The translations under genes and the position numbers were made by a program. A DNA stretch of 64,000 nucleotides from an uncultured Phycisphaera sp. GTDB taxonomy: Bacteria; Planctomycetota; Phycisphaerae; UBA1845. This document shows, piece after piece, positions 1,417 to 53,886 of the stretch; the stretch's first letter is position 1, and each line of letters opens with the position of its first letter. The DNA lies in the NCBI GenBank assembly GCA_964501365.1, contig CAZCST010000003.1, positions 1,962 through 65,961 of the forward strand. Reading direction: 5' to 3'. Below the pieces are notes generated by a model that saw only the letters and a list, made by a program, of their open reading frames with translations, ran no database searches and was not told the origin of the DNA.

Positions 1417-1698
1417 GGCGAATCTACAGACTCTTTGTATAAGTCCTGTGGTTCCGTTCTGCCGTGCCTCCGGCACTTGATAAGATTTCCTCCCACTACC
1501 CAGCGTTGAAACGCCGGGCTATTTTCATGCCGTCCCTTACGGGACGAACTTGAGCGATGCGCGGATAAATACTGGGAACTGTATCACGACAGGAAGTGCA
1601 TCACAGTTTGCGGTAGTCTCCACCCTCACCCTACCCTTTCCCTGGCAGGGAGAAGGGTTTTGAGTCGGAATCCAGACGAACCAAAGAAAGGTCGCGGC

Positions 1699-3342: not shown

Positions 3343-3489
3343 CGGCTGTGGATTCCTACAATCGTAGCGTTGGGTGCGGTTTGGTTGTTCCATCGCATGG
3401 GGCGTGTCCCTCTCAGCCATTGTTCATGCGGCTATGACCTTACGGGGAACACGAGCGGCGTTTGTCCGGAGTGCGGGACGCGAATGTGA
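3343..3489 (+). pseudogene. Relic 3' end (TM helix + CxxCGYDL..CPECG zinc ribbon) of a paralog of the downstream gene
   Basis: The frame is open directly after the amine-oxidase TAA: RLWIPTIVALGAVWLFHRMGRVPLSHCSCGYDLTGNTSGVCPECGTRM*. It has the same C-terminal architecture as 3486..4049 and 21517..21984 but lacks the N-terminal ~100-150 aa. The only ATG (3397) would give a 30-aa peptide. Its TGA overlaps the GTG of the next ORF (ATGTGA). Confidence 0.4.
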
Positions 3490-4049
3490 GAGGATACCAG
3501 AAACTGAAGTGGTGGCTCAGCGTTGGGATAGCTGGACCGTCGAGGCGTAGCATATATCGTGCTGGTCTTTGGCTCGCTCTACTAATGGGAGTCTTGATTG
3601 CCTTCTCGATAAGCGGTATCCGCTTGGAATGGCACGGGAATATTGGTTCCAACTATTGGATTCAGCTGGACCTACAGCGATTTCAAGCGCGGGCACTCAT
3701 ACTTGCGGCCGATTTGCCTTCTGAGCTGGGTCGCTTTGTTCGCGCCTACAACAATTCTCCGATTGATTATGTCATGAGCATCGACGAGGGATTTCGATGG
3801 GAAATTCCGCCGAGACAACCTGCAAGTGTAGGAACGTTTCGATCCTCCTGCTTTGCATTTAGAACCACAGTTCTTATCTACTTGTTAGCATTGTGGTTTT
3901 GTATTAGGTCGTTGAAAACAAAGTTTTCTGAGCGCCGCCTTCGGGCGGGTGGGTTGTGCGCACAATGTGCCTATGATCTCGAAGGCAACACCAGCGGGGT
4001 TTGTCCAGAGTGCGGGACGCGGGTAGCGACGCCAGAATCTAGCCAATAA
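3486..4049 (+). CDS. Membrane protein with C-terminal CxxC..CPEC zinc ribbon (planctomycete-style family)
   Basis: Two predicted TM helices (LWLALLMGVLIAFSI; VLIYLLALWFCI). C-terminus RRLRAGGLCAQCAYDLEGNTSGVCPECGTRV. The start is uncertain: track ATG 3462, or in-frame GTG 3486 overlapping the upstream stop. Confidence 0.6.
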   Translation: MRGYQKLKWWLSVGIAGPSRRSIYRAGLWLALLMGVLIAFSISGIRLEWHGNIGSNYWIQLDLQRFQARALILAADLPSELGRFVRAYNNSPIDYVMSIDEGFRWEIPPRQPASVGTFRSSCFAFRTTVLIYLLALWFCIRSLKTKFSERRLRAGGLCAQCAYDLEGNTSGVCPECGTRVATPESSQ

Positions 4050-6259: not shown

Positions 6260-6517
6260 ATGCCAACAATTGCCCGCATCGGTCCCTACCGCATATACTT
6301 TTATGGTGAGGACCGGAAGGAACCGCCTCATGTGCATGTTGACCGCGACGATAATTCAGCCAAGTTCTGGTTGGCTCCAGTCGGAGTAGCGCATAATTTC
6401 GGTTTCAGGCCCAAGGAGCTGCGTGACATCTATCGGATAATTGCGAGTGAAGCGGAGAATTACCTTGAAATCTGGCACGACAAATTCGGGCCCCAAGCCC
6501 GGAATGAAAGTCTCTGA
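6260..6517 (+). CDS. DUF4160 family protein
   Basis: MPTIARIGPYRIYFYGEDRKEPPHVHVDRDDNSAKFWL matches the DUF4160 signature (..F.FY..EH.PPH.HV..). Confidence 0.8.
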   Translation: MPTIARIGPYRIYFYGEDRKEPPHVHVDRDDNSAKFWLAPVGVAHNFGFRPKELRDIYRIIASEAENYLEIWHDKFGPQARNESL

Positions 6518-6824
6518 CTTGCGGTTCGATGAGGATACGCTGAGCGTCGATCTCGCAGACGGCCGGACAATCACCGTGCCATTGGTTTGGTACCCTCGCC
6601 TCTTAAATGCCACGCATGCAGAGAGAAACAATTGGGAGACCTGCGGAGCTGGATTTGGGATTCACTGGCCTGATGTTGACGAGGATTTAAGTACCCAAGG
6701 TCTTCTTGAGGGGGCGCCATCGCCCGAATACACACGAGCCGTCAAGAAAAAGCCACAAGCCAGGAAACGCACCAGAATCTCATCACATCTTTCCAAATCG
6801 AAACGGGTTATGCGCCGTCGATGA
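6504..6824 (+). CDS. DUF2442 family protein
   Basis: MKVSDLRFDEDTLSVDLADGRTITVPLVWYPRLLNATHAERNNWETCGAGFGIHWPDVDEDLS is the DUF2442 pattern. The ATG at 6504 overlaps the DUF4160 stop by 14 nt. The track ORF 6441 start is probably too early. Confidence 0.75.
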   Translation: MKVSDLRFDEDTLSVDLADGRTITVPLVWYPRLLNATHAERNNWETCGAGFGIHWPDVDEDLSTQGLLEGAPSPEYTRAVKKKPQARKRTRISSHLSKSKRVMRRR

Positions 6825-6848: not shown

Positions 6849-7136
6849 CTACGCGGCTGACATGGCCGCGAATTTGGGGGCGAGGTATTCGACGCAGCTA
6901 TCGAGGGTGGCCAGGCGCGGGTAGTCCTCCTTGGGCACTTCAATCTTGTAGCGTTTGCGAAGCTCCATGACGATGTCGAGGAAGTCCATAGAATCCAGGT
7001 CGAGCTGATCGCGGAGGCGCACGTCGGTCCTGACGTTGGAGAGGTCGGCATCAGGCGCGACCACGGCGATGATTCCCAGGATGACCCCTTTAACCTTGTC
7101 GGCAATGGCAGAAATATTCAAAACTTCAGCTCCCAT
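6849..7136 (-). CDS. Acyl carrier protein (stand-alone, non-acpP context)
   Basis: Phosphopantetheine attachment motif LDLDSMDFLDIVMEL. About 95 aa from ATG 7136. The longer track start (7190) would read through a perfect hairpin at 7163-7179. Confidence 0.8.
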   Translation of the reverse strand: MGAEVLNISAIADKVKGVILGIIAVVAPDADLSNVRTDVRLRDQLDLDSMDFLDIVMELRKRYKIEVPKEDYPRLATLDSCVEYLAPKFAAMSAA

Positions 7137-7342
7137 TTTACAATTGTTTCCAAGTGATTCTGCGACCCTTTCAGGGTCGAAATCTATCATGATCTTATTC
7201 CGGGGGTATCGCTTCGCTCAACCCCCGGCTACTTTCGGCGACCCCTTCGGGGTCGACAGCTTTCTTACCTTGCCCTCGAATTCTACGAAAGTTGATTGTC
7301 TTTGGGACTTGATTGCTAGCCCCTAAATCCAGCCCCTACACC

Positions 7343-8581
7343 CTATGCGGTGTACTTAGAGACAACCACCGCTGAGTTGATCCCCAACATTCCGAATGAA
7401 TTATTAAGGATAATACGCACCGAGTCGATTCGCTTTGGCTCATTGGCCACCAGGTTCCGTACCGCGCACCGCGGATCGGGGTCGGTCAGGTTTATCGTAG
7501 GGTGAATCACCCCATCGTCAAATGATCCAAGGTTTCCAGCCAGTTCTAATGCGCCGGCGGCCCCCATGGCGTGGCCAATGAAGCTCTTTGTGTTGTTGAT
7601 GTAGACGTTTTTGAAGTCGCCAAAGACCTGTCGGATGGCGGTGGCTTCCTGGATGTCGCCGGTTTCGGTGGCTGTGGCGTGGGTGCTGACAATGTCCACA
7701 TCGTCGGGGCCAATGGCCGCGCGTTGGAGCGCCAATGTCATACATTCGGCGACTCGTTCGGGGTTCGGAAGGACCGGGTCCAGTGCGTCAGAGTTCATGG
7801 CATAGCCAATGACCTCGGCGATGATTCTAGCCCCGCGTTTTTTCGCGTCCTGAAGCCGTTCCAGCATGAAAATGCAGCCACCTTCCGAGACGACAATGCC
7901 GTTACGGGCCAGGTCAAATGGCCGGCTGGCCTTGGTCGGGTCTTCGTGCCGGGCGAGCGCGTTTTCGGCTGCGAAGCTGGCGAAAATCCCAAAGGAATGA
8001 ATGGCCTCCGAAACACCTCCTGCCAGCGCCAGATCGACTTCTCCAAGGCGAAGCATCTGCACGCCTTGAATGAGCCCGGCGTTTCCGGCAGCACAGGCCG
8101 CCCCGATGGTGTAATGCGGGCCGCTAATCGCCAGATTCACCGTCACTTCACCGGCAGGATTATTGGCAACGGTCCGAGGGTTATGATGGTGCGACCAGAA
8201 CTTTGTGTCGTAGTCATACTGCCGGATGGCGTCGATTTCGTTCTCGGTTTCGACGGTTCCGTGCTCGGTGATCCCGAGAAACGTACCGATCCGCGAGCGA
8301 TCAAGTTGAGCGGGGTTCAGTCCGGCATGGGCAAATGCCTCGTGGGCACAATAGATGGAGATGGCTCCGGCCCGCGTACCACGGCGGCGGTCCTTGCGGG
8401 TCTGGTATTTCTGCTCGTCGAATTTGCAGACCCCCGCATGCACTTTGCCCATGAAACGGGTTTCGATCGACGTAACGCCGGACACACCTGCCAGCAGGTT
8501 GCGGCGGAAGTCGGACAGGTTGGCCCCGTTGGGGGAGGCAAGCCCTATTCCGGTTATGACGATACGATCGGAAATTGCCAT
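7343..8581 (-). CDS. Beta-ketoacyl-ACP synthase (KAS I/II type, Cys-His-His)
   Basis: Active-site Cys in YTIGAACAAGN; His motifs VSTHATATETGD and KSFIGHAMGAAGALE; 412 aa. Confidence 0.9.
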   Translation of the reverse strand: MAISDRIVITGIGLASPNGANLSDFRRNLLAGVSGVTSIETRFMGKVHAGVCKFDEQKYQTRKDRRRGTRAGAISIYCAHEAFAHAGLNPAQLDRSRIGTFLGITEHGTVETENEIDAIRQYDYDTKFWSHHHNPRTVANNPAGEVTVNLAISGPHYTIGAACAAGNAGLIQGVQMLRLGEVDLALAGGVSEAIHSFGIFASFAAENALARHEDPTKASRPFDLARNGIVVSEGGCIFMLERLQDAKKRGARIIAEVIGYAMNSDALDPVLPNPERVAECMTLALQRAAIGPDDVDIVSTHATATETGDIQEATAIRQVFGDFKNVYINNTKSFIGHAMGAAGALELAGNLGSFDDGVIHPTINLTDPDPRCAVRNLVANEPKRIDSVRIILNNSFGMLGINSAVVVSKYTA

Positions 8582-8685
8582 GACAACATTATTCTTACGG
8601 GCCGCAAACTTCGGTTCGCGCCATTCTCACCGCCAACACCGCTTCCTGACGGTCGCGGTACTGAAATAGGCAATCCTAGCAAAAA

Positions 8686-9693
8686 TTACGGGGCGGGAAA
8701 CCGCTTGAGCCATTCCACCAGCCGCGCTACCCCATCCTCCAATGATACGCGAGGTTGGTAGCCCAGGTCGCGTTTAGCCGCAGAAATGTCAAAATAGTGA
8801 GATTTTGCGAGCTGATTGGCGACGAATCGCGTCATCGGCGGTTCGCGGCGCAAGGCAAAAATCTTGTAAACCACTTCAAATGCGGCCCCCACCGCGGTTG
8901 CGGTTCCAAGCGAAATGCGGCGGGTGACTCGTGGAGCGCCGATGGCGGCCAGAAGCTGATCGAGCCACGACCAGAGGACGACGGGCTGACCCTGGCTGAT
9001 GAAGTAGGCCCTCCCCGCACATGCAGCGGTGGGATTTAGGGCGACCGCAGCGAGGAGGTGGGCCTCGGCGGCATTATCGATGTAGGTAATGTCCACGAGA
9101 TTTTTTCCGTCGCCGACCTGCCGGAGCTTGCCTGCTCTGGCGCGCTCAATCACACGCGGAATAAGGTGCGGGTCGCCCGGGCCCCAAATGAGATGTGGTC
9201 GAAGGGAAATGGTGGAAAGTAAACTGTCATTTGCGGCCAATACCAGACGCTCGGCCATCGCCTTGGATTCCGGATAGGCCGCCAGATATTGATTGGGATA
9301 GGGTACTGATTCATCGACTCCGCACAGGTCGTTGCGGCCAAAGACCACGCTGGGCGAACTTGTATAGACAAGCTTGCGCACTCCAGCCGCACGGCACGCT
9401 TCTACGACGTTTCTGGTTCCATCGACATTGATGCTATGGAATTCCCGGTGCGGCCCCCAAACACCGGCCTTGGCGGCGACATGAAAGACGACATCCATGC
9501 CCGAGCAGGCATGACGAACCGCCTCGCCATCGCGAATGTCTGCGGCCAAATGCTCAATGGTGAATGCGGAATGCGGAATGTCTGATGACGGCGCGCGACG
9601 AGATAGGGTAGTGACATGGTCGCCGCGAGCCTGGAGCATGCGCACGATGGCGCTGCCCAGGAATCCGTTTCCGCCGGTCACGAGTGCCTTCAC
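8686..9693 (-). CDS. NAD(P)-dependent epimerase/dehydratase, 3-beta-hydroxysteroid dehydrogenase-like
   Basis: Rossmann motif MKALVTGGNGFLGSAIV (GTG start). YxxxK-type region YPESKAMAE. Overall 3beta-HSD/SDR-extended family layout. Confidence 0.85.
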   Translation of the reverse strand: MKALVTGGNGFLGSAIVRMLQARGDHVTTLSRRAPSSDIPHSAFTIEHLAADIRDGEAVRHACSGMDVVFHVAAKAGVWGPHREFHSINVDGTRNVVEACRAAGVRKLVYTSSPSVVFGRNDLCGVDESVPYPNQYLAAYPESKAMAERLVLAANDSLLSTISLRPHLIWGPGDPHLIPRVIERARAGKLRQVGDGKNLVDITYIDNAAEAHLLAAVALNPTAACAGRAYFISQGQPVVLWSWLDQLLAAIGAPRVTRRISLGTATAVGAAFEVVYKIFALRREPPMTRFVANQLAKSHYFDISAAKRDLGYQPRVSLEDGVARLVEWLKRFPAP

Positions 9694-9746: not shown

Positions 9747-11129
9747 TCAGGAAACGCCGGCCGCGACTGGTTTGGCAGGGCGAATGGCGTTCCAGCGTGC
9801 AAGGATGCCCGCCAATCGTTGAGCATCTTCCAGCGAATGGCTCGGTGCGATGGTGGTGAGTCGATTGCCTACCTGCGCCAGCATTGCCTCATGTGCCTCG
9901 CGATCCACGCCCGGTGGGATTTGAGATACGGACATCGCCAGCTCGGCGGCCACCAGCGGATCTTGGCGCAAAACCGTTACGAGTACGTAATGGATGAGCG
10001 GTTGGGCGAAACCAGCCTGTTCGCCGCCGCTTCGGAACAACTCGACCAGCCGTGCCCAGACCGGCCTGATCTGCTGCAGGTCTGCAACGGAAAGCTGGCT
10101 GCGAAGCTGTTGCCGGACGGCATCGCGAAGTTCGGAGCGAATTTCGCCTTCCACCCTGCCGCAAGAAGCCTGAAAGGTGCGGTACACCACATCGAGTAGT
10201 GCGAGACTTTCCTTCTTCGGGATGTCATCGATGGTATTGAACCATTCGCCAACTCGTTCCCGTACCGGCGCGGAGCAGTCGTCATAGGGGCGCGTCGTTC
10301 GGCGCGAGAGTCCCGCCAGGTCGCCGGCGGCCCAATAGCGATCGACCAATGTCAGCCAGTTCGACTGGACCGGGATGGATTTTGTTTTCGCACTGAGGAA
10401 CCCCAACCCCTGCGCCGTGACCCGCGTTTCGAGTCCTTGTTTGTCGTCGCGAAGGATATTGAGCGTGTGTCCGCGTCCGGCGGAGTAGCGGAGTCCGGCG
10501 GCGAAGGAGATTTTCAATCGGAGTGGCGCAGGCATCGCCAGAACAATCGCCTCAGCCCAGGGCAGCCAATCGGTGGGAAGTTCCACGACGAGGGGCTTTC
10601 CTTCGAGCAGTTTTTGTACTGCGTCCAATCGAACAGGGGGCGGGAGCAAAGCGGCGATCTGGCCGTCAAATCGACCGCGCGAATTTTTCTCGACGACGAG
10701 TTCGAGTGCGGGGATCGTCACCGCCGTCGCCGCAGTCTGGAGTTTTTGAAGGTTGATGTCGGTGTCGGGCAGCGCGCGAATCAGATGAAACGGATTGCTT
10801 TCACATTCCTTGAAGTCTTCTTCGTTCAGAATGAGATTCTGCGTGTAGACCCGCTGACCGCCCCGACCGCTTTGCTCGGCCCCGGCGTGTCGACTCCATG
10901 CAACACAAAGCCGTCCCGCGCCGAGGGAGTAGAAGGCGACTCCAGCGGGTGAGTCTTCGCCTGCGCCCGGAGGGCAGAGCGATTCGTGCGACGGAGAACA
11001 GCGGGTGATCTTCTGCTTTTCGTCGGCGCGAATTCCCTTGCTCGCGGCGACGATGCGATAGCCTTCGCCGGTCGGGCCGCGCGCGGAGGTAAAGACCGCC
11101 TGCTCACAGACGATAGTCTTGCCAGCCAT
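9747..11129 (-). CDS. Large uncharacterised protein, N-terminus resembling GTPase-associated protein (GAP1-like) domains
   Basis: ATG at 11129 lies 2 nt after the GTPase TAA (cgaTAAacATG). The track GTG 11174 would overlap by 43 nt. The N-terminus IVCEQAVFTSARGPTGEGYRIVAASKGI fits my recollection of the [YF]TS..x6-9..G[FY]x..A.S.G motif of GAP1 N-domains. The rest is mainly helical with no motif I recognise. Confidence 0.7.
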   Translation of the reverse strand: MAGKTIVCEQAVFTSARGPTGEGYRIVAASKGIRADEKQKITRCSPSHESLCPPGAGEDSPAGVAFYSLGAGRLCVAWSRHAGAEQSGRGGQRVYTQNLILNEEDFKECESNPFHLIRALPDTDINLQKLQTAATAVTIPALELVVEKNSRGRFDGQIAALLPPPVRLDAVQKLLEGKPLVVELPTDWLPWAEAIVLAMPAPLRLKISFAAGLRYSAGRGHTLNILRDDKQGLETRVTAQGLGFLSAKTKSIPVQSNWLTLVDRYWAAGDLAGLSRRTTRPYDDCSAPVRERVGEWFNTIDDIPKKESLALLDVVYRTFQASCGRVEGEIRSELRDAVRQQLRSQLSVADLQQIRPVWARLVELFRSGGEQAGFAQPLIHYVLVTVLRQDPLVAAELAMSVSQIPPGVDREAHEAMLAQVGNRLTTIAPSHSLEDAQRLAGILARWNAIRPAKPVAAGVS

Positions 11130-11131
11130 GT

Positions 11132-12037
11132 TTATCGTCGCTTCTTGTTCGCCTGAAGTTTGTTGAGCACCCACTCAAACGGCTCGAGCACGCCGCGTGG
11201 AGCGATGTGCAGCGGATACGAAACCACGTTGTCAGATTCGTCTGATCCGTACGCGAGCGCACCGACGACGCTGGTGGCGAAGAATTCATAGTTGACGAAA
11301 CGGCTCTCGCACATATTCCAGAGCCGGTTGAGGTTGCTCTGTGCGAATGCACGCGGATCGTCGAACACTTCGGGACAATAGTCGCCCTTGGACAGAACAA
11401 CGGCCACGGGAGTGGTCAGTTTCTTCTGAGACTTGGAGGACATGACGCCGTCGAGATAGCTGAGCAGCTTGAGAGCAAAGAAGTCGGGCTGCGGCGATCC
11501 GGCGGCGGCCAAAGCGCCATCGACCAGAAGGACTGCGCCGGCGCTCTTTTCGAGCAGTGAGCGAACGACCTGGAATGTCTTGGGATTGGCGACCTCGGCT
11601 GCGATGGCTTCGCCGGCCATGTCCGGCATGACCAGATCGTAGATGTCGCCGGATTTTGCGCGGCGCTTTACCTGATAGTAGGCCCAGTGCCAGTCATCGA
11701 CTTCCATCGCCGTCTTCGGCGGGAACATGCGCATGCTCACGTGGCTGACCACGGAGTGCTGAAGGTTCACCGAATAGGCCCCCTTGGGAACCGACTCAAA
11801 GTCTTCGGCGCGGTTGGAAAGCATGTCGAGCAACATGCCGAGGTAGACGGTCTTGCCCACGTTGCTGTCGCCCATGACCGTGACGATGCAAGGGTCGCGG
11901 TCCTGGGTGACGGCTTCATGGATGAGTGCCATGGGGGCGCCGCAGGTGGCGCATACCAGAGCTTCAAAGCCGTTCTTTTGTTCGCAGATCAGACACGGAA
12001 TCGTGGTCGAATTCCGGGATGCCGTCGCTGTAGCCAT
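11132..12037 (-). CDS. Zinc-ribbon-fused P-loop GTPase (TRAFAC class)
   Basis: N-terminal CLIC-x10-CATC ribbon. G1 GDSNVGKT, G3 DMAGE, G4 SKGD, possible G5 ATSV. AGGAG Shine-Dalgarno 8 nt upstream of the ATG. Confidence 0.85.
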   Translation of the reverse strand: MATATASRNSTTIPCLICEQKNGFEALVCATCGAPMALIHEAVTQDRDPCIVTVMGDSNVGKTVYLGMLLDMLSNRAEDFESVPKGAYSVNLQHSVVSHVSMRMFPPKTAMEVDDWHWAYYQVKRRAKSGDIYDLVMPDMAGEAIAAEVANPKTFQVVRSLLEKSAGAVLLVDGALAAAGSPQPDFFALKLLSYLDGVMSSKSQKKLTTPVAVVLSKGDYCPEVFDDPRAFAQSNLNRLWNMCESRFVNYEFFATSVVGALAYGSDESDNVVSYPLHIAPRGVLEPFEWVLNKLQANKKRR

Positions 12038-12058
12038 GTGTTCACTCCTAAAATCGTA

Positions 12059-13078
12059 TCAACCGCCGTTAATCCATGTGGCGTCGCTCAGTTTCATTGC
12101 GCATCGGAAGCCGGTGTTCGGCGTCCGGGCCAGAGCGAGCTGCCCCGTGCGGAAGTGGCTGGTGGCCTGAAACTCGAAATACGTGTCGTACGCTCCGCCG
12201 CGAACCACGTGCATGGGCATTTCGCCCACAACCGGGCGATTGTTGGAATCTGTGACGGCATAGTCGGTGTCGGTCCATTCCCAGACGTTGCCCACGAGCT
12301 GCAGCACATGGTTGGGCGCTGATCCGTTGGGAAATGCGGAAACCGGAACTGTTCCGCCGATGCGCGATCCCCAGATATTGCAGCGCTTCTTGTCCATGGC
12401 GTCGCCCCACGGGAAACGCCGCATGAGGTTGGTGGAACTGTGGAGATGCCACGACGCGGCCATCTGCCACTCCGCTTCACTCGGCAGGCGCTGCCCGATC
12501 CAGAGCGTGAAGGCCTGGGCTTCGTACCAGCTGATGCCCACGACGGGGTGCTCGGAGAGTCGCACGTCGTGGCGTCCCTGTCGCCAGTATCGCGGGCCGG
12601 GCTGGCCGGTGAGGTCTTTCAGTTCGATCAGGTGCGGCCAGATCTCCTCAGGCCAGTATTCCAGCATGTCATATCCGCCGGCGTCCACGAAATGCTGGTA
12701 TCGCTTGTTGCTTACGCAGTGAACGTCAAGGAGGTACGAAGCGACATCGATGTCCTCTTCGGGGTCGCCGGGCTGTGCGGCGAGCGTCTTCGAAATGGAG
12801 ACGGTTCCCGCGGGAACCAGAGCCATGCGCTGCTCCAGTTCGCTATAGACCTCCTGAAGGATTGATCTGTATTCCGGCTGGTCCTTCAATTCGCCTTTAT
12901 CCTTCAGGATCGCACAATAGCGTCCCTGCTGAAAGGCGCGCTTCAGCGGATTGCTGTCGAGGCTCGCCAGCGGAGCCGGCTGAGTGGTTTCAAACGTCGG
13001 AGGCAAACCGGGACCGTTGTATCCGCCATCCCGTGTTTGTTTTCCGACTGTCTTTGTGCGCGAAAAGAGCTTTAACAT
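12059..13078 (-). CDS. FGE-sulfatase (SUMF1/EgtB/PvdO) fold protein lacking the FGE catalytic cysteines
   Basis: HPVVGISWYEAQAFTLWIGQRLPSEAEWQMAA, FPWGD, LVGNVWEWTDTDY, VVRGGAYD...NTGFRCA. There is no Cys between RGG and GFRC, where bona fide FGE has its Cys pair. The N-terminal ~140 aa is unassigned. Confidence 0.85.
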   Translation of the reverse strand: MLKLFSRTKTVGKQTRDGGYNGPGLPPTFETTQPAPLASLDSNPLKRAFQQGRYCAILKDKGELKDQPEYRSILQEVYSELEQRMALVPAGTVSISKTLAAQPGDPEEDIDVASYLLDVHCVSNKRYQHFVDAGGYDMLEYWPEEIWPHLIELKDLTGQPGPRYWRQGRHDVRLSEHPVVGISWYEAQAFTLWIGQRLPSEAEWQMAASWHLHSSTNLMRRFPWGDAMDKKRCNIWGSRIGGTVPVSAFPNGSAPNHVLQLVGNVWEWTDTDYAVTDSNNRPVVGEMPMHVVRGGAYDTYFEFQATSHFRTGQLALARTPNTGFRCAMKLSDATWINGG

Positions 13079-13122
13079 TTCGTCGTTCCTTCTTTTGGAG
13101 CGTCAGCGGCGAAAATACGTTG

Positions 13123-13944
13123 TTAGACTCCGATGGCCCGACGTTTGGCGTCGCGGCGCAGTTTGCGATATTGATCGACGCCGCCCGCTGCGGCTGGTTT
13201 GGGTCCCCAGTTGTTGTTATTCGGGATTTCCAGATGAGCGGGCATCGGCTCCTGATGTTCGGCGTGTTGCTCAGGGAGCCGCGAGAGGCGTTTCAATAGT
13301 TCCTCACGATGCGCGGTTATTTCGTCGTGATCCGTCTTAAGCTGGGACTGCATTTCGGTCAGCGCTTCGCGCAATTCTTCCAGTTCGGTGCTGCGCTGTT
13401 CGAGTTCGGATGTCTGGTTTTCAATTTCCAGGGCGCGCAGGTCGAGTTCCTTCTGTTTCGGAGCCAGTTCGCGCATTTTCGCTTCGACATCGCGCTGTGC
13501 GTCTTGAAGCGCCTTTTCACGTTTTCTCAGTTCGGTTTCCGCAGCCACCACTTCGACCTGAAGGTGTTCGAGTCTCGTGGCCTTGTCGCCCAGTGCGCAG
13601 GTCTTGTCCTGAACGGATCGTTCCTGTTCGGCGAGTTGCTGGCGGGCCTGGGCCAGGCATGTTTCCTGCTCCCGCAGTTCCTCTTCCTTTTGCTGGAGGG
13701 CCGATCGATTGGATTCATACTCGGCCATATCGCTTTGGAACTGTTCGAGTGACCGGGCAATTTCGTCACGATCGTGTTGAATGCGATTGCCCTCGGCGAT
13801 GAGTTCGTCGCGCGTAATGCAGGCGGCCTTGATGACGGCCTCCGCCAGCGCCCGAACCTGAGAGGGATCGGGCGGAGAGCCTGCAGACAGTTCATCCAAC
13901 GCTTCGGGTAGGGTCATCACGCAGTCATCCCGTTCTTCGTCCAC
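13123..13944 (-). CDS. Coiled-coil protein (first gene of the GTPase module)
   Basis: About 200 aa of heptad-like E/Q/R/K/L-rich sequence (..LQQKEEELREQETCLAQARQQLAEQERSVQDK..). Basic tail QYRKLRRDAKRRAIGV. AAGGAA SD of the next gene lies in the 44-nt spacer. Confidence 0.75.
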   Translation of the reverse strand: MDEERDDCVMTLPEALDELSAGSPPDPSQVRALAEAVIKAACITRDELIAEGNRIQHDRDEIARSLEQFQSDMAEYESNRSALQQKEEELREQETCLAQARQQLAEQERSVQDKTCALGDKATRLEHLQVEVVAAETELRKREKALQDAQRDVEAKMRELAPKQKELDLRALEIENQTSELEQRSTELEELREALTEMQSQLKTDHDEITAHREELLKRLSRLPEQHAEHQEPMPAHLEIPNNNNWGPKPAAAGGVDQYRKLRRDAKRRAIGV

Positions 13945-14195
13945 GTCCGCCGGTGGGTGGAGTCATTCCTGCCCGGCGAACGCCGCCAGACCAAGTCAAG
14001 AGTACGATATGAAATTTCCGCCCCGCGTTTTTGCCGCCTGCGAAAACATTACCGGGCCTGGAGTTTCCAGCCTGCAAAAAAACCTGTCGTGAAATGTAGA
14101 CTGGGTTGGAGGATTGACGATCCGCGCGCCGAACGGACCGATAGCTTCTCGCCGATGACGTTTCAACAAACCATTGAATTGAACGAGGGAGCACG

Positions 14196-17081
14196 ATGAC
14201 TCAGCCACCACGCATCAATGACGCATTGGCCGACTTGGATAGCAAGGTAGCGGCGCTCGAGCGCGGTTTGGTCGAGTACCAGAACGGCGTGGCGACCTGG
14301 ACCAACGAGTCACTCGGTCAAGTTTCCCAACACTCTGTGGCGCTGGAGTCGAAGGGCAAGGACCTGGGCCATCGAGAGTCCTCCCTTGAGAAGGAACGTG
14401 CCCGGATCGAACAGCAGCACGCGGAAGCCCTGGAAATCAGGAAGACCTGCGAGGCCCGGGATCGTGAGCTCAAGGAACTGGCCGAATTTCTGGCGCAGGC
14501 CGAACGCGATGCGGCCAACAAGGAAAAAAGCCGTCGCGCAGAGTTCGAACAGAAGGAGGCAGAACTCAACAAGGCGAAATCCGCCCTGGCCAGGCAGGAA
14601 GAGGCTCACTCGCAACGGGAGCACGAGGCGGCCGAGCTACGTACGAAATTGGATGCGGAGTTGCGGGAGCTGGAGGCCCGCAAGAAACATTTCGACGAAC
14701 AGATCAAACAAAGCGGGAAGGAAGCTGAGCAACTGCATGTGCTGTCGGCTCGCATCGAAGAACAAAAACGCCAGATTGAAAATCAGGAACGAGAGCTGGC
14801 TGCCCGCGCAGCCGACCTCGCCGATCGTGAGGGGGCGCTCTCCAATACGCAGGCGGCCCACGGAGCTCGTGACCGCGAACTCAAGGAGCTGGCTGAGTCT
14901 CTGGCGCAGGCGGAACGCGATGCCGCCAATAATGACAAGAATCGGCGCAAGGAATTCGACCAAAGAGAGGCGGAACTCAGCCAGGCCAAAGCTGCATTGG
15001 CCAGGCAGCTCTCCGAAGTCGAGGCGAAGGGCAAGTCCGTCGAAGCCCGTGCTCAGGAGATCAAGGCGGCGGCCGCGAAACAGGAGGAGATTCGTTCGCA
15101 GTGGGAGAGTGGAGCCGCCGAGCGACGCGCGAAGCTGGACGCGGAGACACGCGAGCTGAACTCCCGGCAGAAACTGCTCGACGAACAACTTGAACAATGC
15201 GAAAAGGAAGCGGAACAGTCCCGAAGAGCCTCGGCACAAATCGAGGAACGAAAGAGTCAGTTGGAAACTCTGGAACGCGAGCTGGCTGCCCGCGAAGCCG
15301 ACCTCGTCGATCGCGAGGGGGCGCTCTCCAATACGCAGGCGGCTCACGGAGTCCGCGAATGCAAGCTGCAGGAATCCCACGAGGAACTCGATGCAAAGCG
15401 TGCGGAATGCGAAAAGCTCAAGAAGCAACTCGAGTCGCAGCGAAAGCAGTTGGAACAGCAAGTCGAGGACGTCAAGATCAAGGACCGGGAACTTGCTTCA
15501 CAATCCGAGGAATCAACCCGGCACCGCGCCCAGGTTGAAAAGGACCGTCGCGCGTTGAGCGAATGGGAGGCACGTTGCAAGGAGCAGGAGCAGCGGCTGG
15601 CCGCCGAACAGGCAAAATTCGAAAGGCAGCAGGCGAACGCAGAAAGCCGGCACGAACAATTACGGGCTCTCGAAGCATCTCTGCAGACCGACCGCACCCA
15701 ACTTGCTGCCGCGAAGGAAGCCTTTGATGCACAATGTGCGGCTGCGAAGATTCAACTCGTCCACGAACAGGATCAGATTCATCTGAAGAGTGAGAGCGCC
15801 CGCCGGCATGAACAGGAGCTTCAGAACGAACGCGCGGCCACGGCGCGATTGAAGGAGGACTTCGAGCGACGCATCGCGCAGGCTGGTCAGCGAGAGGCCG
15901 ACCTCGTCGCGCAGCAAGCCAAGCTGGAAGAAGCGCTTGCCGCCATTCAGAATGACCGCCTGGCCGTGCAAAAGGCCCGCTCCATGGCCGATGAAGTCGC
16001 CCATGCGCGCAGCGACGAGCTTGGTCGAAGTCGCCAGGAAATCGATGCTTTGCGGGCTGAAATGGCAAAAATGCAGCAGGCCCACGAAGAGCTGCAACAG
16101 ACGCTTGGAGAGGTTCGCGACGCGGCGCAGCGAGAATCCGTCGCGGCGGAAAACGCGAAGCGGGAACTTCAAGTCGCTGCCGCACAGGCGGAAAGCTCAC
16201 GGGCAGCGGCCAGCGAATCCGCGCTTACTGAATACCAGCAAAAGCTGCAGCAGGCCGAAGCGACCTTGGTCGAATTCCGCGCCGAGTTGGAGGCGGCCCG
16301 CGCACAACGAAACCAGCTCGAAAACGACCTGCTCTCCGCGCTTGAGGCACGTGAGCAGGCTGCCCAGAAGCTCGATGAGACCCGTGTGGAGCTCGAACAA
16401 TCCGGAAAGAAGCTTGAGCAGGAGCGGGCGCAATGGGTGGCCCAGCTGGAATCGCTCAAAGAACGTCAGAGTGAAGAGCGACTCGCCGCGCAGAACACGT
16501 CGTCCGCACAGGAAATGGAAAGTGTTGGCGACTCCAGAGATGAGCAACACGTCGTCGCTCAGAAATCCGGTTCAGATTATGTCTCCACAATCGCCTCAGA
16601 CCTTCTGCCGCCAGTTGAATCAACGGATCCCTCGCCCGCCGCGGCCGAAGTGTCAGAGGCGTCGGAACATGCGGCTGAAGCGCCGGCGGAAGACATGGCC
16701 TCAGCGATGCAGTCGGCCCTCGCGGCCGCGCACGCCGAGGTCAATAACAATCAGTCAGAGGAAGCCACGTCGTCCAAACAACGATCGCGCGCCACTTCCA
16801 AGAGGGCCAAACCAGCGTCAACGACTCCGAAGGCATCGACCAAGCCCGCCGCCGCCGTTTCGCAGGCTCCGGCGGCAGCACCGCAGCAGCAAGCTCCGAA
16901 AACAAGCCCGGCCGCGCCGGAAATTCCCATCGAACTTGACGCGGAGACCCGTCAGAAACTTAAGACGCTCAAGCGCCTGGATCCGAACAAGTCCGAGAGC
17001 GAGCTTCTGGCCATCATCCAGTCCAGAGAGACGGAAGTGGAGAAGCCGAAGGCCAAGCGCGGGTGGTTTGCGAGGAAATAG
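14196..17081 (+). CDS. Giant (961 aa) coiled-coil protein with Ala/Pro/Ser-rich disordered tail
   Basis: Continuous E/Q/A/R/K/L-rich sequence for about 750 aa. A low-complexity tail (..KPASTTPKASTKPAAAVSQAPAAAPQQQAPKTSPAAPE..) ends KAKRGWFARK. GAGGGAG SD before the ATG. Divergent from 13944. Confidence 0.85.
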   Translation: MTQPPRINDALADLDSKVAALERGLVEYQNGVATWTNESLGQVSQHSVALESKGKDLGHRESSLEKERARIEQQHAEALEIRKTCEARDRELKELAEFLAQAERDAANKEKSRRAEFEQKEAELNKAKSALARQEEAHSQREHEAAELRTKLDAELRELEARKKHFDEQIKQSGKEAEQLHVLSARIEEQKRQIENQERELAARAADLADREGALSNTQAAHGARDRELKELAESLAQAERDAANNDKNRRKEFDQREAELSQAKAALARQLSEVEAKGKSVEARAQEIKAAAAKQEEIRSQWESGAAERRAKLDAETRELNSRQKLLDEQLEQCEKEAEQSRRASAQIEERKSQLETLERELAAREADLVDREGALSNTQAAHGVRECKLQESHEELDAKRAECEKLKKQLESQRKQLEQQVEDVKIKDRELASQSEESTRHRAQVEKDRRALSEWEARCKEQEQRLAAEQAKFERQQANAESRHEQLRALEASLQTDRTQLAAAKEAFDAQCAAAKIQLVHEQDQIHLKSESARRHEQELQNERAATARLKEDFERRIAQAGQREADLVAQQAKLEEALAAIQNDRLAVQKARSMADEVAHARSDELGRSRQEIDALRAEMAKMQQAHEELQQTLGEVRDAAQRESVAAENAKRELQVAAAQAESSRAAASESALTEYQQKLQQAEATLVEFRAELEAARAQRNQLENDLLSALEAREQAAQKLDETRVELEQSGKKLEQERAQWVAQLESLKERQSEERLAAQNTSSAQEMESVGDSRDEQHVVAQKSGSDYVSTIASDLLPPVESTDPSPAAAEVSEASEHAAEAPAEDMASAMQSALAAAHAEVNNNQSEEATSSKQRSRATSKRAKPASTTPKASTKPAAAVSQAPAAAPQQQAPKTSPAAPEIPIELDAETRQKLKTLKRLDPNKSESELLAIIQSRETEVEKPKAKRGWFARK
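14454..15350 (+). repeat. Internal tandem duplication inside the giant coiled-coil gene (units aa 87-223 and 224-385)
   Basis: ARDRELKELAEFLAQAERDAANKEKSRRAEFEQKEAEL.. versus ARDRELKELAESLAQAERDAANNDKNRRKEFDQREAEL... Both units end RELAAR.ADL.DREGALSNTQAAHG, with near-identical DNA (gctggctgcccgcg.agccgacctcg.cgatcg.gagggggcgctctccaatacgcaggcgg.). The second unit carries a ~25-aa insertion. Confidence 0.8.
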
Positions 17082-17396
17082 GCCATAGATTGCGAACACC
17101 TGGAAGGGAATACGATTGCATTTGGATCGCATTCTTCTGGCGCGATAAAAGCGTAATTGCCGATTTCCCGAAGCAGACGGCGTTTCCCCTGCGCGGTTAC
17201 CGCTTGATGACGCCGCATATTATTTCCCCGTCATTGGCAGTGCCCCCATAACCATATCCGGTTCCCAAAAACAATGGACAAGTTCAATTCGACGGTTAAA
17301 ATTCACGGTGAAGGGCTGTATTCACATGGAACAGGCCCGAAGGGGGATTCGTTACTTTTCCAAAGAGTCGTTCGGCCTTCTCGACGGGGGGATTCT

Positions 17397-24108: not shown

Positions 24109-24139
24109 AGTTCAAAATTCGAAATTCAAAGTTCAAAAA
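24109..24139. repeat. Heptameric A/T-rich tandem repeat (consensus AGTTCAA) x4
   Basis: agttcaa aattcga aattcaa agttcaa, immediately after the stop at 24108. Followed by the small hairpin TCCCC-n9-GGGGA (24165-24183). Confidence 0.6.
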
Positions 24140-24205
24140 CGATGGAAAAACTAACCCGTCCATGTCCCCACTTATCAGGGGGAGGCACACCGGACAGCAT
24201 GGCAC

Positions 24206-25042: not shown

Positions 25043-25049
25043 GGACGGA

Positions 25050-25080
25050 AGTTCAAAGTCAAAAGTTCAAAGTTCAAAAA
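25050..25080. repeat. Heptameric tandem repeat (AGTTCAA family) x4 in the motA-motB spacer
   Basis: agttcaa agtcaaa agttcaa agttcaa aaaag. On the minus strand it sits immediately 5' of the motB ATG. Followed by hairpins AGGGG-aaa-CCCCT and TCCCCCC-ttcgtaa-GGGGGGA (25100-25120). Confidence 0.6.
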
Positions 25081-53879: not shown

Positions 53880-53886
53880 ACGATAA

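What the first reader, a model, noticed from the sequence alone, without database searches (positions are those of the whole stretch)
9747..13944. Candidate uncharacterised GTPase-centred four-gene system (coiled-coil / Cys-less FGE-like / zinc-ribbon GTPase / GAP1-like protein)
Four tightly packed co-directional genes have short, SD-containing or coupled junctions: 44 nt, 21 nt, and TAAacATG.

(1) A 273-aa coiled-coil protein.

(2) A protein whose C-terminal two-thirds is an FGE-sulfatase/SUMF1 fold (ISWYEA..RLPSEAEW..GNVWEWT..RGG..GFRC). It has no cysteine in the RGG-to-GFRC segment where genuine formylglycine-generating enzymes carry the catalytic Cys pair. It is therefore unlikely to be a sulfatase maturase, and no sulfatase gene is nearby.

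(3) A 301-aa P-loop GTPase with intact G1/G3/G4 (GDSNVGKT, DMAGE, SKGD) fused to an N-terminal CxxC-x10-CxxC ribbon. It does not look like Era/Obg/Der/MglA/dynamin.

(4) A 460-aa protein whose N-terminus (VFTSARGPTGEGYRIVAASKGI) resembles, from my memory, the [YF]TS...G[FY]x..A.S.G signature of GTPase-associated protein 1 N-domains. Those domains were defined in the Aravind-group computational survey of NTP-dependent conflict systems (eLife 2020). That survey also proposed FGE-like (FGS) domains as sensor/effector modules.

As I recall them, the described GTPase-centric systems use double-GTPase proteins. A single zinc-ribbon GTPase combined with an FGS protein and coiled-coil partners is not an architecture I can assign to a named system.

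An alternative reading is a GTPase switch organising a coiled-coil scaffold (polarity, division or envelope). That would be interesting if the host is an FtsZ-less planctomycete.
Basis: partly seen in the sequence, partly recalled or inferred. Interest (0 to 1): 0.85.

Follow-up and report, generated by a model that had tools for sequence, protein, structure and literature searches.

The report
Planctomycete GTPase–GAP1–FGE-like gene cluster
This is a real, tightly conserved operon of a kind predicted by computer in 2020 but never tested: a zinc-ribbon GTPase, its partner protein GAP1 and a non-catalytic FGE-like protein, here always joined by coiled-coil proteins, and in planctomycetes it evolves like a housekeeping membrane-associated switch rather than a mobile defence island.

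Summary
The four genes, their motifs and their junctions are exactly as described. Pfam places the GTPase in DO-GTPase1/2 and the 460-aa protein in GAP1-N2, both above the curated cut-offs. The second protein is an FGE-sulfatase fold without the FGE cysteine pair and without the EgtB DinB domain.

The architecture is not unassigned. Kaur et al. [quoted passage not shown] No experimental work was found.

New here:
- CC → FGE-like → GTPase → GAP1 is conserved in 80 Phycisphaerae/Planctomycetota species genomes and in Pirellulales.
- A second coiled-coil protein (window 14196-17081) also belongs to the module.
- Three partners carry conserved basic terminal peptides or hydrophobic hairpins.
- The GTPase is as conserved as a flanking housekeeping enzyme. 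The locus is single-copy, sits in syntenic housekeeping flanks and has no viral relatives.
- A confident AlphaFold model of GAP1 has longin topology plus an α/β lobe and best matches folliculin, DENND1 and TagF.

Best reading: a membrane-proximal GTPase switch, regulated by GAP1, that organises a coiled-coil scaffold. Verdict: a member of a known but uncharacterised kind, of moderate interest.

The parts
14196..17081 (+). Second coiled-coil partner ('CC-long', 961 aa), transcribed divergently from the operon. Its C-terminal tail reads LD.ET..KLK.LKRL.P.KS..ELL ... K.K.WFARK.
   Evidence: Orthologues of 824-1670 aa sit in the same divergent position in the near relatives. In the distant loci a short version (about 160-290 aa, up to 572 in L049) with the same tail is co-directional and upstream. 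At least 37 loci match by regex. There is no Pfam domain and no TM segment. The gene contains internal direct repeats at 14454-15373.
13945..14195 (.). Divergent intergenic region (251 bp), the presumed promoter region for both transcription units. A conserved block, ATATCGTACTCTTGAC, lies at about 13995-14013.
   Evidence: The block is invariant in the window, L084, L001 and L002 while the rest of the spacer has diverged. The sigma-70 consensus scan found nothing. Any function is inferred.
13123..13944 (-). Coiled-coil protein CC273 (the probable start is the ATG at 13917, giving 264 aa). Conserved C-terminal peptide: PKPA...DQ[FY]RKLRRDAKR[KR]AIG[VA].
   Evidence: A CC273-type ORF lies immediately upstream of the FGE-like gene in 70/70 loci. 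The tail motif is also kept in Pirellulales as QFE[ML]LQRD..RRR. The body evolves fast, with a median pairwise identity of 33%. It gives only weak coiled-coil-type profile hits.
12059..13078 (-). FGE-sulfatase-fold protein (339 aa). It lacks the FGE catalytic cysteines and the EgtB DinB domain. Its N-terminus carries three conserved motifs: M(A)LKLFSRK, [FY]xPAP and DPLKR..QQGR[YF].
   Evidence: Pfam PF03781, E = 5.6e-39, residues 83-327. The closest solved relatives are the C-terminal domains of OvsA/EgtB (E about 2e-24), then FGE (6e-19). The NCBIfam EgtB, SenA, OvoA and GldK models all score far below their cut-offs. The gene is present in 80/80 loci. Median identity is 67% and dN/dS about 0.05. 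Pirellulales versions have an N-terminal hydrophobic hairpin instead. There is no DGR-type repeat.
11132..12037 (-). Zinc-ribbon DO-GTPase (301 aa), a TRAFAC P-loop GTPase with a DxxGE Walker B motif.
   Evidence: Pfam DO-GTPase1/2 above cut-off. 99 of 301 residues are at least 95% conserved in 80 species, including four Zn-ribbon cysteines and G1/G3/G4. There is no solved relative by sequence. The AF2 model (pLDDT 72) matches TRAFAC GTPases generically. Only 273 of 1.84 billion 50%-identity representatives match at E ≤ 1e-3.
9747..11129 (-). GAP1-N2 protein (460 aa), translationally coupled to the GTPase (TAAacATG). It has a longin-like N-domain, an α/β middle lobe and an all-α C-domain.
   Evidence: Pfam GAP1-N2 at 51.2 bits; GAP1-M is weak. 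GAP1-N2 is found in 60/60 family members. Invariant residues: G23 Y24 P46 S47 H48 G83 E85 R89 G91 R93 R204 W258. AF2 model: pLDDT 93.3, pTM 0.89. The best Foldseek PDB matches are FLCN, TagF and DENND1A/B.

Best explanation
The locus is the planctomycete, FGS-containing form of the GAP1-N2-type DO-GTPase system predicted by Kaur et al. 2020. Here it turns out to be a five-gene module.

Proposed mechanism:
1. The zinc-ribbon GTPase is the switch. (Shown: intact, invariant G motifs. Inferred: that it cycles.)
2. GAP1 is made in fixed proportion through translational coupling. It is the GTPase's dedicated regulator, and it docks through its longin-like N2 domain. The invariant arginines R25, R89 and R93 are candidate catalytic or contact residues, as in the longin/DENN regulators folliculin, GATOR1 and DENND1. 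(Inferred from the fold, from conservation and from co-divergence.)
3. The FGE-like protein is a non-catalytic lectin-fold binding module. It is held at the inner face of the cytoplasmic membrane by a basic N-terminal peptide in Phycisphaerae and by a hydrophobic hairpin in Pirellulales.
4. The two coiled-coil proteins carry conserved basic or aromatic C-terminal peptides. They are the scaffold whose assembly or membrane attachment is set by the nucleotide state. (Inferred.)

In these planctomycetes the module behaves as a vertically inherited, single-copy, strongly constrained cellular system. I therefore rate a constitutive cell-biological role (envelope, polarity, division or membrane organisation) as more likely than phage or conflict defence.
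For: Membership:
- Pfam hits above the curated cut-offs.
- The DxxGE motif, the zinc ribbon, GAP1 immediately downstream and the FGS partner all match the paper's description.

The genes are a unit:
- FGE-like 80/80, GAP1 77/80 and CC273-type 70/70.
- The same four genes recur in Pirellulales.
- Pairwise divergences of GTPase/FGE-like and GTPase/GAP1 correlate, with Spearman 0.82 and 0.81 over 68 loci.

Housekeeping-like evolution:
- Median pairwise identity is 74.5% for the GTPase against 70.6% for the flanking FTCD enzyme in the same 13 genomes.
- dN/dS is 0.04-0.14 for all five genes.
- The 80 loci come from 80 different assemblies.
- The flanks are metabolic genes that are syntenic within sub-clades. 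Mantel r = 0.47, p = 0.001 against FTCD.
- The window has uniform GC and carries rpoB and TypA, with no mobile-element genes.
- There are no relatives on viral contigs and no PADLOC hits.
- It is a narrow family of uniform architecture.

GAP1 as regulator:
- The AF2 model has pLDDT 93 and ββαβββαα order. That is the longin topology as defined in PMC3747258.
- The top Foldseek hits are FLCN (2e-4), TagF (3.6e-4), DENND1A (3.9e-3), FLCN again, and DENND1B.

Membrane proximity:
- Hydrophobic N-terminal segments occur in the Pirellulales FGE-like proteins.
- Conserved basic or aromatic termini occur on three partners.
- The paper also infers that GAP1-N2 systems are membrane-proximal.
Against: - No experiment exists for any DO-GTPase/GAP1 system.
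- The DENN/longin link is structural only. TM-scores are low (0.16-0.34), and sequence profiles find nothing.
- TagF, which scores equally well, is not known to regulate a GTPase.
- Membrane binding by the terminal peptides is a guess.
- The FGE-like domain could still be catalytic in some unknown way: C233 and C326 are invariant.
- I could not measure presence or absence across whole genomes, so 'core, not patchy' rests on synteny, copy number and evolutionary rate.
- dS is saturated (above 1), so the dN/dS values are rough.
- The authors who defined the family interpret it as a conflict system. Strong conservation of a switch component is compatible with that view, because the fast-evolving GAP1 and coiled-coil genes could be sensors.
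- The FNIII partner that the paper attributes to GAP1-N2 systems is absent.
Confidence: 0.5

Rival explanations
1. It is an NTP-dependent biological-conflict (anti-phage or abortive-infection) system, as Kaur et al. proposed. GAP1 and the fast-evolving coiled-coil proteins sense an invader, the GTPase sets a threshold, and the FGS protein is the effector or decoy that triggers macromolecular assembly or cell death.
For: - The locus belongs to the family its discoverers interpret this way, including the FGS 'effector' in planctomycetes.
- GAP1 and the coiled-coil proteins diverge much faster than the GTPase: 40% and 33% median identity against 74.5%. That pattern is expected of sensors.
- The module keeps its integrity while its flanks change.
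Against: - The locus is single-copy in each of the 80 genomes.
- Its flanks are housekeeping genes, syntenic within sub-clades.
- All five genes are under purifying selection.
- The supposed effector is among the most conserved parts (67% identity, ω about 0.05) and has no hypervariable region or DGR repeat.
- No toxin-type domain was found.
- There are no PADLOC matches and no viral relatives.
- The window has no mobile-element genes and no compositional anomaly.
Confidence: 0.3
2. It is an enzyme-centred pathway. The FGE-like protein would be an oxidase or sulfoxide-synthase-type enzyme, or a modifier of the conserved tail peptides. The GTPase and GAP1 would serve as its metal-insertion or activation chaperones, by analogy with the CobW, HypB, UreG and MeaB GTPases.
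For: - The FGE-like domain is closest in sequence to the catalytic-core domains of OvsA and EgtB.
- It is highly conserved, with invariant C233 and C326.
- It is always adjacent to the GTPase.
- The GTPase carries a zinc-binding ribbon.
Against: - The FGE copper-binding cysteine pair is absent, which the sequence shows directly.
- The EgtB/OvsA iron-binding DinB domain is absent. Only the C-terminal part of those models aligns, and the scores are 107 against a cut-off of 360.
- The GTPase is a TRAFAC DO-GTPase, not a SIMIBI/G3E metallochaperone.
- There are no sulfatase, ergothioneine or ovothiol genes nearby.
- Coiled-coil partners have no place in such a pathway.
Confidence: 0.08
3. The genes are functionally unrelated neighbours that only look like an operon.
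For: None beyond the absence of direct transcription data. The consensus promoter scan found nothing.
Against: - The same order and orientation hold in 80 species-level genomes and in a second class, with 2-44 nt junctions or overlaps.
- The components co-diverge.
Confidence: 0.01

Closest known systems
GAP1-N2-type DO-GTPase ('GTPase-centric') systems, planctomycete FGS-containing form (Kaur, Burroughs, Iyer, Aravind, eLife 2020; PMC7159879)
   Same: - A DO-GTPase with DxxGE and an N-terminal zinc ribbon.
- GAP1 with an N2-type N-domain encoded immediately downstream.
- An FGS/FGE-like protein in the operon.
- A planctomycete host.
- Inferred membrane proximity.
   Different: - It has one zinc ribbon, not the 'usual' two.
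- It has no FNIII-repeat protein.
- GAP1-M is only weakly detectable and GAP1-C is not detected.
- Two conserved coiled-coil partners with terminal peptides are not mentioned in the paper's text.
- In this clade the system is not mobile, paralogous or effector-variable. It is single-copy, syntenic and strongly constrained.
Longin/DENN-type GTPase regulators (DENND1-Rab35 GEF; folliculin-FNIP2 GAP for RagC; GATOR1 Nprl2/3)
   Same: - The GAP1 model has an N-terminal ββαβββαα (longin-order) domain followed by an α/β lobe and a helical region.
- These proteins are its best structural matches in the PDB.
- Like them, GAP1 is dedicated to one cognate P-loop GTPase.
- It has invariant arginines in the longin-like domain. 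From my own knowledge, FLCN and Nprl2 use longin-domain arginine fingers.
   Different: - There is no detectable sequence homology.
- Global TM-scores are low.
- The partner GTPase is a distinct TRAFAC family with a zinc ribbon, not a Rab, Rag or Arf.
- Any activity (GAP, GEF or neither) is untested.
MglA/MglB(-RomR/RomX) polarity module of Myxococcus
   Same: A bacterial small-GTPase switch whose dedicated regulator has a roadblock/longin-class fold. It is encoded next to the GTPase and positions cytoskeletal or polar scaffolds.
   Different: - MglB is a roadblock homodimer, not a three-domain protein.
- MglA is Ras/Arf-like and has no zinc ribbon.
- There is no FGE-like partner.
- No homology was shown here.
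TagF (type VI secretion accessory protein; PDB 9t0n)
   Same: It is the second-best Foldseek match of the GAP1 model (E = 3.6e-4, probability 0.99), with a two-lobed α+β / α/β architecture.
   Different: TagF binds Hcp and regulates T6SS assembly, and no GTPase partner is known (bioRxiv 10.64898/2025.12.08.692957). It shows no sequence similarity to GAP1.
FGE/SUMF1 and EgtB/OvoA/OvsA sulfoxide synthases
   Same: - The same FGE-sulfatase (C-type-lectin-like) fold.
- The shared motifs HPV.G.SW.EA, RLP[ST]EAEW, GNVWEWT, RGG and GFRC.
   Different: - The FGE cysteine pair is missing.
- The N-terminal DinB iron-binding domain of EgtB and OvsA is missing.
- The protein instead has a short N-terminal region with three conserved linear motifs.

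Membership tests
DO-GTPase / GAP1-N2 system (Kaur et al. 2020) | A GTPase of the DO-GTPase family (Pfam PF19975/PF19993) | tested here: met
   48.9 and 37.0 bits against a gathering cut-off of 27. All 240 listed homologues carry both Pfam marks.
DO-GTPase / GAP1-N2 system (Kaur et al. 2020) | A conserved glutamate in Walker B (DxxGE) | tested here: met
   D139-M-A-G-E143. D139, G142 and E143 are invariant in A2. One Pirellulales orthologue has DMAGD.
DO-GTPase / GAP1-N2 system (Kaur et al. 2020) | N-terminal zinc ribbon(s) on the GTPase (usually two in the N2 type) | tested here: met
   One CxxC-x10-CxxC ribbon, with C15, C18, C29 and C32 invariant. It has one ribbon, not two.
DO-GTPase / GAP1-N2 system (Kaur et al. 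2020) | GAP1 with a GAP1-N2 domain, encoded directly downstream of the GTPase | tested here: met
   PF20013 at 51.2 bits against a cut-off of 24, and 60/60 family members match. The junction is TAAacATG. GAP1 is adjacent in 77/80 loci.
DO-GTPase / GAP1-N2 system (Kaur et al. 2020) | GAP1-M and GAP1-C domains | tested here: inconclusive
   GAP1-M scores E = 0.11 here and matches in 4/60 members (best 0.0017). No GAP1-C match was found. The AF2 model does show three domains.
DO-GTPase / GAP1-N2 system (Kaur et al. 2020) | An accompanying protein with rapidly evolving FNIII repeats | tested here: not met
   No FNIII hit in the module genes or in any scanned window ORF. No such family appears among the conserved neighbours in 80 loci.
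DO-GTPase / GAP1-N2 system (Kaur et al. 2020) | An FGS (FGE-like) component in planctomycete versions | tested here: met
   PF03781, E = 5.6e-39, present in 80/80 loci.
DO-GTPase / GAP1-N2 system (Kaur et al. 2020) | A mobile gene neighbourhood with variable effectors and, in some organisms, paralogous copies | tested here: not met
   There is one locus per assembly and a fixed component set. The flanks are syntenic housekeeping genes. There are no viral relatives. Whole-genome presence/absence was not testable.
DO-GTPase / GAP1-N2 system (Kaur et al. 2020) | A function in biological conflict | not testable with these tools
   No experimental literature was found. PADLOC has no model that matches.
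Formylglycine-generating enzyme (FGE/SUMF1) | The FGE-sulfatase fold | tested here: met
   Pfam, 134.8 bits. PDB FGE chains match at E about 6e-19.
Formylglycine-generating enzyme (FGE/SUMF1) | A catalytic, copper-binding cysteine pair between the RGG and GFRC motifs | tested here: not met
   There is no Cys in residues 294-325, in the window protein or in the family consensus. The positions of the FGE cysteines are from my own knowledge.
Formylglycine-generating enzyme (FGE/SUMF1) | A sulfatase substrate gene in the vicinity | tested here: not met
   No sulfatase was found among the window ORFs scanned or among the recurrent neighbours.
EgtB/OvoA/OvsA sulfoxide or selenoxide synthases | An N-terminal DinB-type iron-binding domain plus a score above the model cut-off | tested here: not met
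   EgtB scores 107 bits against a cut-off of 360, and only profile positions 171-413 align. SenA scores 94 against 420 and OvoA 59 against 400. The PDB alignments start at chain residues of about 213-223.
Longin/DENN GTPase-regulator fold class | An N-terminal ββαβββαα longin topology followed by an α/β lobe, with structural matches to DENN or FLCN | tested here: met
   The AF2 secondary-structure order is E4-18, E21-29, H35-44, E62-70, E73-84, E92-102, H103-108, H113-119, compared with the definition in PMC3747258. The Foldseek top hits are FLCN, TagF and DENND1A/B. This rests on a predicted model and low TM-scores.
Longin/DENN GTPase-regulator fold class | Sequence-profile homology to DENN, folliculin or longin families | tested here: not met
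   A profile search of the PDB returns only helical-repeat noise. No DENN, longin or TagF Pfam family matches in 60 members at E ≤ 10.
Longin/DENN GTPase-regulator fold class | GEF or GAP activity on the cognate GTPase | not testable with these tools
   This needs biochemistry or at least a complex model.
Known anti-phage defence systems (PADLOC-DB 2.0) | A match of the core proteins to any defence-system model | tested here: not met
   No hits for the FGE-like protein, the GTPase or GAP1. The coiled-coil protein gives only low-score coiled-coil matches to JetC and LmuB.

The most novel reading that the evidence does not exclude
The DO-GTPase/GAP1-N2/FGE-like/coiled-coil module is not a defence system in Planctomycetota. 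It is a vertically inherited cell-biological machine. In it, a bacterial longin+DENN-like protein regulates a dedicated P-loop GTPase to control membrane-tethered coiled-coil scaffolds. That would make it a prokaryotic counterpart, possibly a distant homologue, of eukaryotic DENN/folliculin-type GTPase regulation. It would operate in a phylum known for FtsZ-less division and elaborate membranes.
Probability: 0.3. Interest if true: 0.8.

Novelty: new member of a known kind. Interest (0 to 1): 0.5.

Why it matters
DO-GTPase/GAP1 systems are widespread, yet none has been studied experimentally. This planctomycete form offers an unusually clean case: five genes, a fixed architecture and hundreds of orthologues, with clear predictions.

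If the housekeeping reading is right, it adds a candidate GTPase-driven scaffold system to a phylum whose division and membrane organisation lack the usual FtsZ machinery.

If the fold assignment of GAP1 holds, longin-plus-DENN-like GTPase regulators exist in bacteria alongside a cognate GTPase. They were once thought to be eukaryote-specific (PMC3521125, PMC3747258). That bears on the origin of eukaryotic GTPase regulation and would also reinterpret TagF.

If the locus is instead a defence system, it would be an unusual one: vertically fixed and lacking a toxin.

Tried and rejected
- **Sulfatase maturase.** Rejected: there is no cysteine pair and no sulfatase nearby.
- **Ergothioneine/ovothiol-type synthase.** Rejected: there is no DinB domain and the scores are far below the cut-offs.
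- **DGR-diversified FGS receptor.** Rejected: there is no template/variable repeat pair, and the C-terminus of the domain is conserved.
- **Known defence system.** PADLOC gave no hits.
- **Mobile island.** The window has uniform GC, no integrase or transposase, a single tRNA 40 kb away, and rpoB and TypA in the same window.
- **Loss of GAP1 in the closest relative (L001).** This was a false lead. A 299-aa lipoprotein gene is inserted, and GAP1 follows it.
- **Sequence-level link of GAP1 to DENN, FLCN or TagF, and of the GTPase to any solved structure.** Nothing was found.
- **Known small domains in the conserved tails** (for example SAP/HeH-like). No Pfam match.
- **Supplementary data of the eLife paper, searched for planctomycete examples.** The text held has no matching terms.
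- **Search for a cultured host.** Only MAGs were found among named members.
- **Sigma-70 promoter scan.** It found nothing and is uninformative for this phylum.
- **First greedy ORF clustering.** It was contaminated by antisense ORFs in this GC-rich DNA (cluster 4), so I replaced it with tblastn-anchored extraction.

Full report
**Observation**

The four co-directional minus-strand ORFs are present at the stated coordinates.
- CC273 stop, then 44 nt containing AAGGA, then the FGE-like ATG.
- FGE-like TGA, then 21 nt containing AGGAG, then the GTPase ATG.
- GTPase cgaTAAacATGgct GAP1.

No terminator-like site lies on the coding strand inside the cluster. Gene callers on identical public contigs start the first gene at the ATG at 13917, giving 264 aa rather than 273. 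The stated motifs exist. The FGE-like protein has no cysteine between R293-GG and GFR-C326, although it is not cysteine-free.

**Family assignment**

Pfam places the proteins as follows:
- The 301-aa protein falls in DO-GTPase1 (48.9 bits) and DO-GTPase2 (37 bits); the cut-off for both is 27.
- The 460-aa protein falls in GAP1-N2 (51.2 bits, cut-off 24), with a weak GAP1-M match.
- The 339-aa protein falls in FGE-sulfatase (E = 5.6e-39, residues 83-327).
- The first protein gives only weak coiled-coil-type hits.

NCBIfam's EgtB, SenA, OvoA and GldK models match the FGE-like domain far below their cut-offs and only over their C-terminal halves. By sequence, the nearest solved structures are the C-terminal domains of OvsA and EgtB, followed by FGE. 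The protein therefore has the fold but neither the FGE cysteine pair nor the DinB iron domain of the sulfoxide synthases. PADLOC has nothing for the three core proteins.

**What is already known**

The eLife 2020 survey (PMC7159879) defines GTPase-centric systems by a DO-GTPase plus a downstream GAP1. It states that:
- Only 38% of systems have two GTPases.
- 60% of DO-GTPases carry one or two N-terminal zinc ribbons.
- GAP1-N2 systems occur in planctomycetes.

The paper also attributes an FNIII-repeat protein to GAP1-N2 systems, and that protein is absent here. Its text does not mention coiled-coil partners for the planctomycete form. I found no experimental study: only four papers in the library use these terms at all.

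**Comparative genomics**

The GTPase has 886 relatives in the 90%-cluster database, and the best 120 are 71-94% identical. GAP1 has 61 relatives and falls to 57-58% identity for its nearest non-identical relative.

A scan of species-representative genomes returned 80 loci. All are MAGs labelled Phycisphaerae or Planctomycetota, apart from three labelled only 'uncultured bacterium' and one, probably mislabelled, 'Alphaproteobacteria' bin.

- The FGE-like gene immediately precedes the GTPase in 80/80 loci, and GAP1 follows in 77/80.
- Two of the three exceptions are contig ends.
- The third exception (L001, and its relative L084) has a 299-aa lipoprotein gene inserted between the GTPase and a retained GAP1.
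- A CC273-type gene lies upstream in 70/70 loci with at least 2.2 kb of upstream sequence.

The same quartet recurs in Pirellulales (class Planctomycetia): a coiled-coil protein, the FGE-like gene, the GTPase (often overlapping by 4 nt) and GAP1. The GTPase clade there is again large and conserved, with 1,438 hits.

**A fifth component and conserved terminal peptides**

The divergently transcribed 961-aa coiled-coil gene (14196-17081) also belongs to the module.
- Orthologues of 824-1670 aa occupy the same position in the near relatives.
- In the distant loci a short protein (about 160-290 aa, up to 572 in L049) with the same C-terminal tail sits co-directionally upstream.
- The tail reads LDPET..KLK.LRRLNP.KS..ELL, then a variable linker, then KKK.W[FW].RK at the very end.

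CC273 always ends in PKPA...DQFRKLRRDAKR[KR]AIG[VA]. In Pirellulales the equivalent is QFE[ML]LQRD..RRR.

The FGE-like protein begins with M-A-L-[KR]-L-F-[ST]-R-K-K, followed by [FY]xPAP and DPLKR..QQGR[YF]. In Pirellulales this N-terminal peptide is replaced by a hydrophobic hairpin plus a basic stretch.

None of these tails matches a Pfam domain. No window protein has a TM segment. I read these features as membrane-targeting or docking peptides. That reading is an inference.

**Evolutionary behaviour**

- Across 13 genomes that also share the downstream housekeeping gene FTCD, median pairwise identities are: GTPase 74.5%, FTCD 70.6%, FGE-like 66.6%, GAP1 40.1% and CC273 32.9%.
- The GTPase, FGE-like and GAP1 divergences are tightly correlated over 68 loci (Spearman 0.82 and 0.81). 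The GTPase matrix correlates with FTCD (Mantel r = 0.47, p = 0.001).
- Against the closest relative, dN/dS is 0.04-0.05 for the GTPase and the FGE-like gene and 0.08-0.14 for GAP1 and the coiled-coil genes. dS is saturated, so these values are rough.
- Flanking genes are metabolic (FTCD, the kynurenine pathway, EamA, saccharopine dehydrogenase) and are syntenic within sub-clades. The window's own downstream ACP/KAS/3β-HSD genes are not conserved next to the module.
- The 80 loci come from 80 assemblies.
- No relatives occur on viral contigs.
- The window has uniform GC and carries TypA, rpoB and glycogen and cell-envelope genes, but no mobile-element genes.
- No DGR-type repeat involves the FGE-like gene.
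- An exhaustive phmmer search of 1.84 billion 50%-identity representatives finds only 273 matches at E ≤ 1e-3 and 53 at E ≤ 1e-30, mostly about 300 aa long. This is a narrow family of uniform architecture.

Together these results argue for vertical inheritance under strong constraint rather than a mobile, diversifying island. I could not measure genome-wide presence or absence.

**Structures**

*GAP1.* The GAP1 model is confident (pLDDT 93.3, pTM 0.89).
- Residues 1-120 have the order ββαβββαα. That is the longin topology as defined in PMC3747258, which also stated that no longin domains were then known in prokaryotes.
- Residues 140-250 form a five-strand α/β unit.
- Residues 257-460 are all-helical.

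Foldseek against the PDB ranks folliculin (6nzd_H, E = 2e-4), TagF (9t0n, 3.6e-4, probability 0.99), DENND1A (6ekk_B, 3.9e-3), folliculin again (8dhb_J) and DENND1B (3tw8_A) at the top. GATOR1 subunits rank further down. TM-scores are low (0.16-0.34), and sequence profiles find no link. This is therefore a fold-level resemblance, not demonstrated homology.

The eLife paper does not mention DENN, longin or roadblock. The 2012 DENN study treated the DENN and d-DENN domains as confined to the eukaryotic module. The TagF preprint reports no characterised homologue for TagF's C-terminal domain.

Family-invariant GAP1 residues cluster in the longin-like domain: G23, Y24, R25, P46-S47-H48, G83, E85, R89, G91 and R93. 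From my own knowledge, folliculin and Nprl2 act through longin-domain arginine fingers, which makes R25, R89 and R93 natural candidates.

*GTPase.* The GTPase model is of moderate quality (pLDDT 72). It matches TRAFAC GTPases broadly, including Nog1, Sar1/Arf/Arl, FeoB, translation factors and YcjX, with no specific closest family. No sequence relative has been solved.

**Interpretation**

Membership in the GAP1-N2 DO-GTPase family is secure. I rate it at about 0.9, with the caveats that there is no FNIII partner, only one zinc ribbon, and an undetected GAP1-C domain.

The mechanism I consider most likely has three parts:
1. The GTPase is a switch.
2. GAP1 is its dedicated longin/DENN-like regulator.
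3. The nucleotide state controls assembly or membrane attachment of a complex formed by the membrane-tethered, non-catalytic FGE-like binding module and the two coiled-coil scaffolds.

Given the evolutionary behaviour, I favour a constitutive cellular role over defence, at roughly 0.5 against 0.3. Neither is shown. An enzyme-centred reading is unlikely (about 0.08), and chance adjacency is excluded.

**Verdict**

The finding is real and correctly described. It belongs to a known, computationally defined and experimentally untouched kind, so it is not categorically new.

The additions made here give it moderate interest (0.5) and clear experiments:
- The five-gene conserved module.
- The terminal peptides.
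- The housekeeping-like evolution.
- The longin/DENN-like model of GAP1.

Noticed in passing
L001:8141-8992 and L084:11052-12704: In the closest relatives (GTPase 94% identical) a 299-aa lipoprotein-like gene (MKNALKILSVCAAMLAVAGC...) is inserted between the GTPase and GAP1. This breaks the translational coupling seen everywhere else. GAP1 is retained after the insertion.
   Followed up: partly
window 14454-15373: The 961-aa coiled-coil gene contains internal direct repeats of 143-144 nt at 76-82% identity. Its orthologues vary from about 824 to 1670 aa, so the rod length is evolutionarily plastic while the C-terminal tail is fixed.
   Followed up: partly
window 13995-14013 (and a second block TACATTTCRCGA nearby): A block reading ATATCGTACTCTTGAC is invariant in the divergent intergenic region of the window, L084, L001 and L002, while the surrounding spacer has diverged. 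It is a candidate promoter or operator shared by the two transcription units.
   Followed up: partly
PDB 9t0n versus GAP1 model: The type VI secretion accessory protein TagF is the second-best structural match of GAP1, sitting between folliculin and DENND1. The TagF preprint reports no characterised homologue for its C-terminal domain. TagF may belong to the same longin/DENN-like fold class.
   Followed up: partly
window 79-1416 and 17274-18992: Two ORFs carry Cys-rich repeats of the form CDDGN.CNG.E.C, with weak DUF7107 and Dicty_CTDC hits. The 572-aa ORF also neighbours the module in L001 and L084.
   Followed up: no
window 3426-3482 and 3965-4021: A 57-nt direct repeat (81% identity) encodes C.YDL.GNTSGVCPECG, a zinc-ribbon-like motif, in two places 539 nt apart.
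   Followed up: no
window 24108-24149, 25049-25090, 53879-53920: A 42-nt motif rich in AAGTTCAAA recurs three times. Two of the copies flank the MotB/OmpA-like and MotA/ExbB-like genes (24206-25952).
   Followed up: no
window 6260-6824: A small overlapping gene pair encodes DUF4160 and DUF2442 proteins. It sits between TypA and the ACP/KAS genes and may be a small mobile two-gene cassette.
   Followed up: no
window 6849-9693: ACP-like, beta-ketoacyl synthase and 3β-HSD/epimerase genes are co-directional with the module. They start only about 53 nt after the GAP1 stop, with no predicted terminator, so they may be co-transcribed in this genome. This linkage is not conserved in other loci.
   Followed up: partly
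L057 (JANQQE010000011.1): An 892-kb contig labelled 'Alphaproteobacteria bacterium' carries the module with the same kynurenine-pathway flanks as the Phycisphaerae loci L054, L058, L059 and L067. The bin is probably mislabelled.
   Followed up: no
window 1499-1546 (+): Rfam match to Acido-Lenti-1 RNA just above the gathering threshold (38.2 bits against 37).
   Followed up: no
L085:10001-11115 (CP070790.1): A partial GAP1-N2 homologue lies in a 4.28-Mb Planctomycetota MAG chromosome with no DO-GTPase or FGE-like gene within 10 kb. The called gene does not translate to the database protein. It may be a pseudogene or an orphan copy.
   Followed up: no
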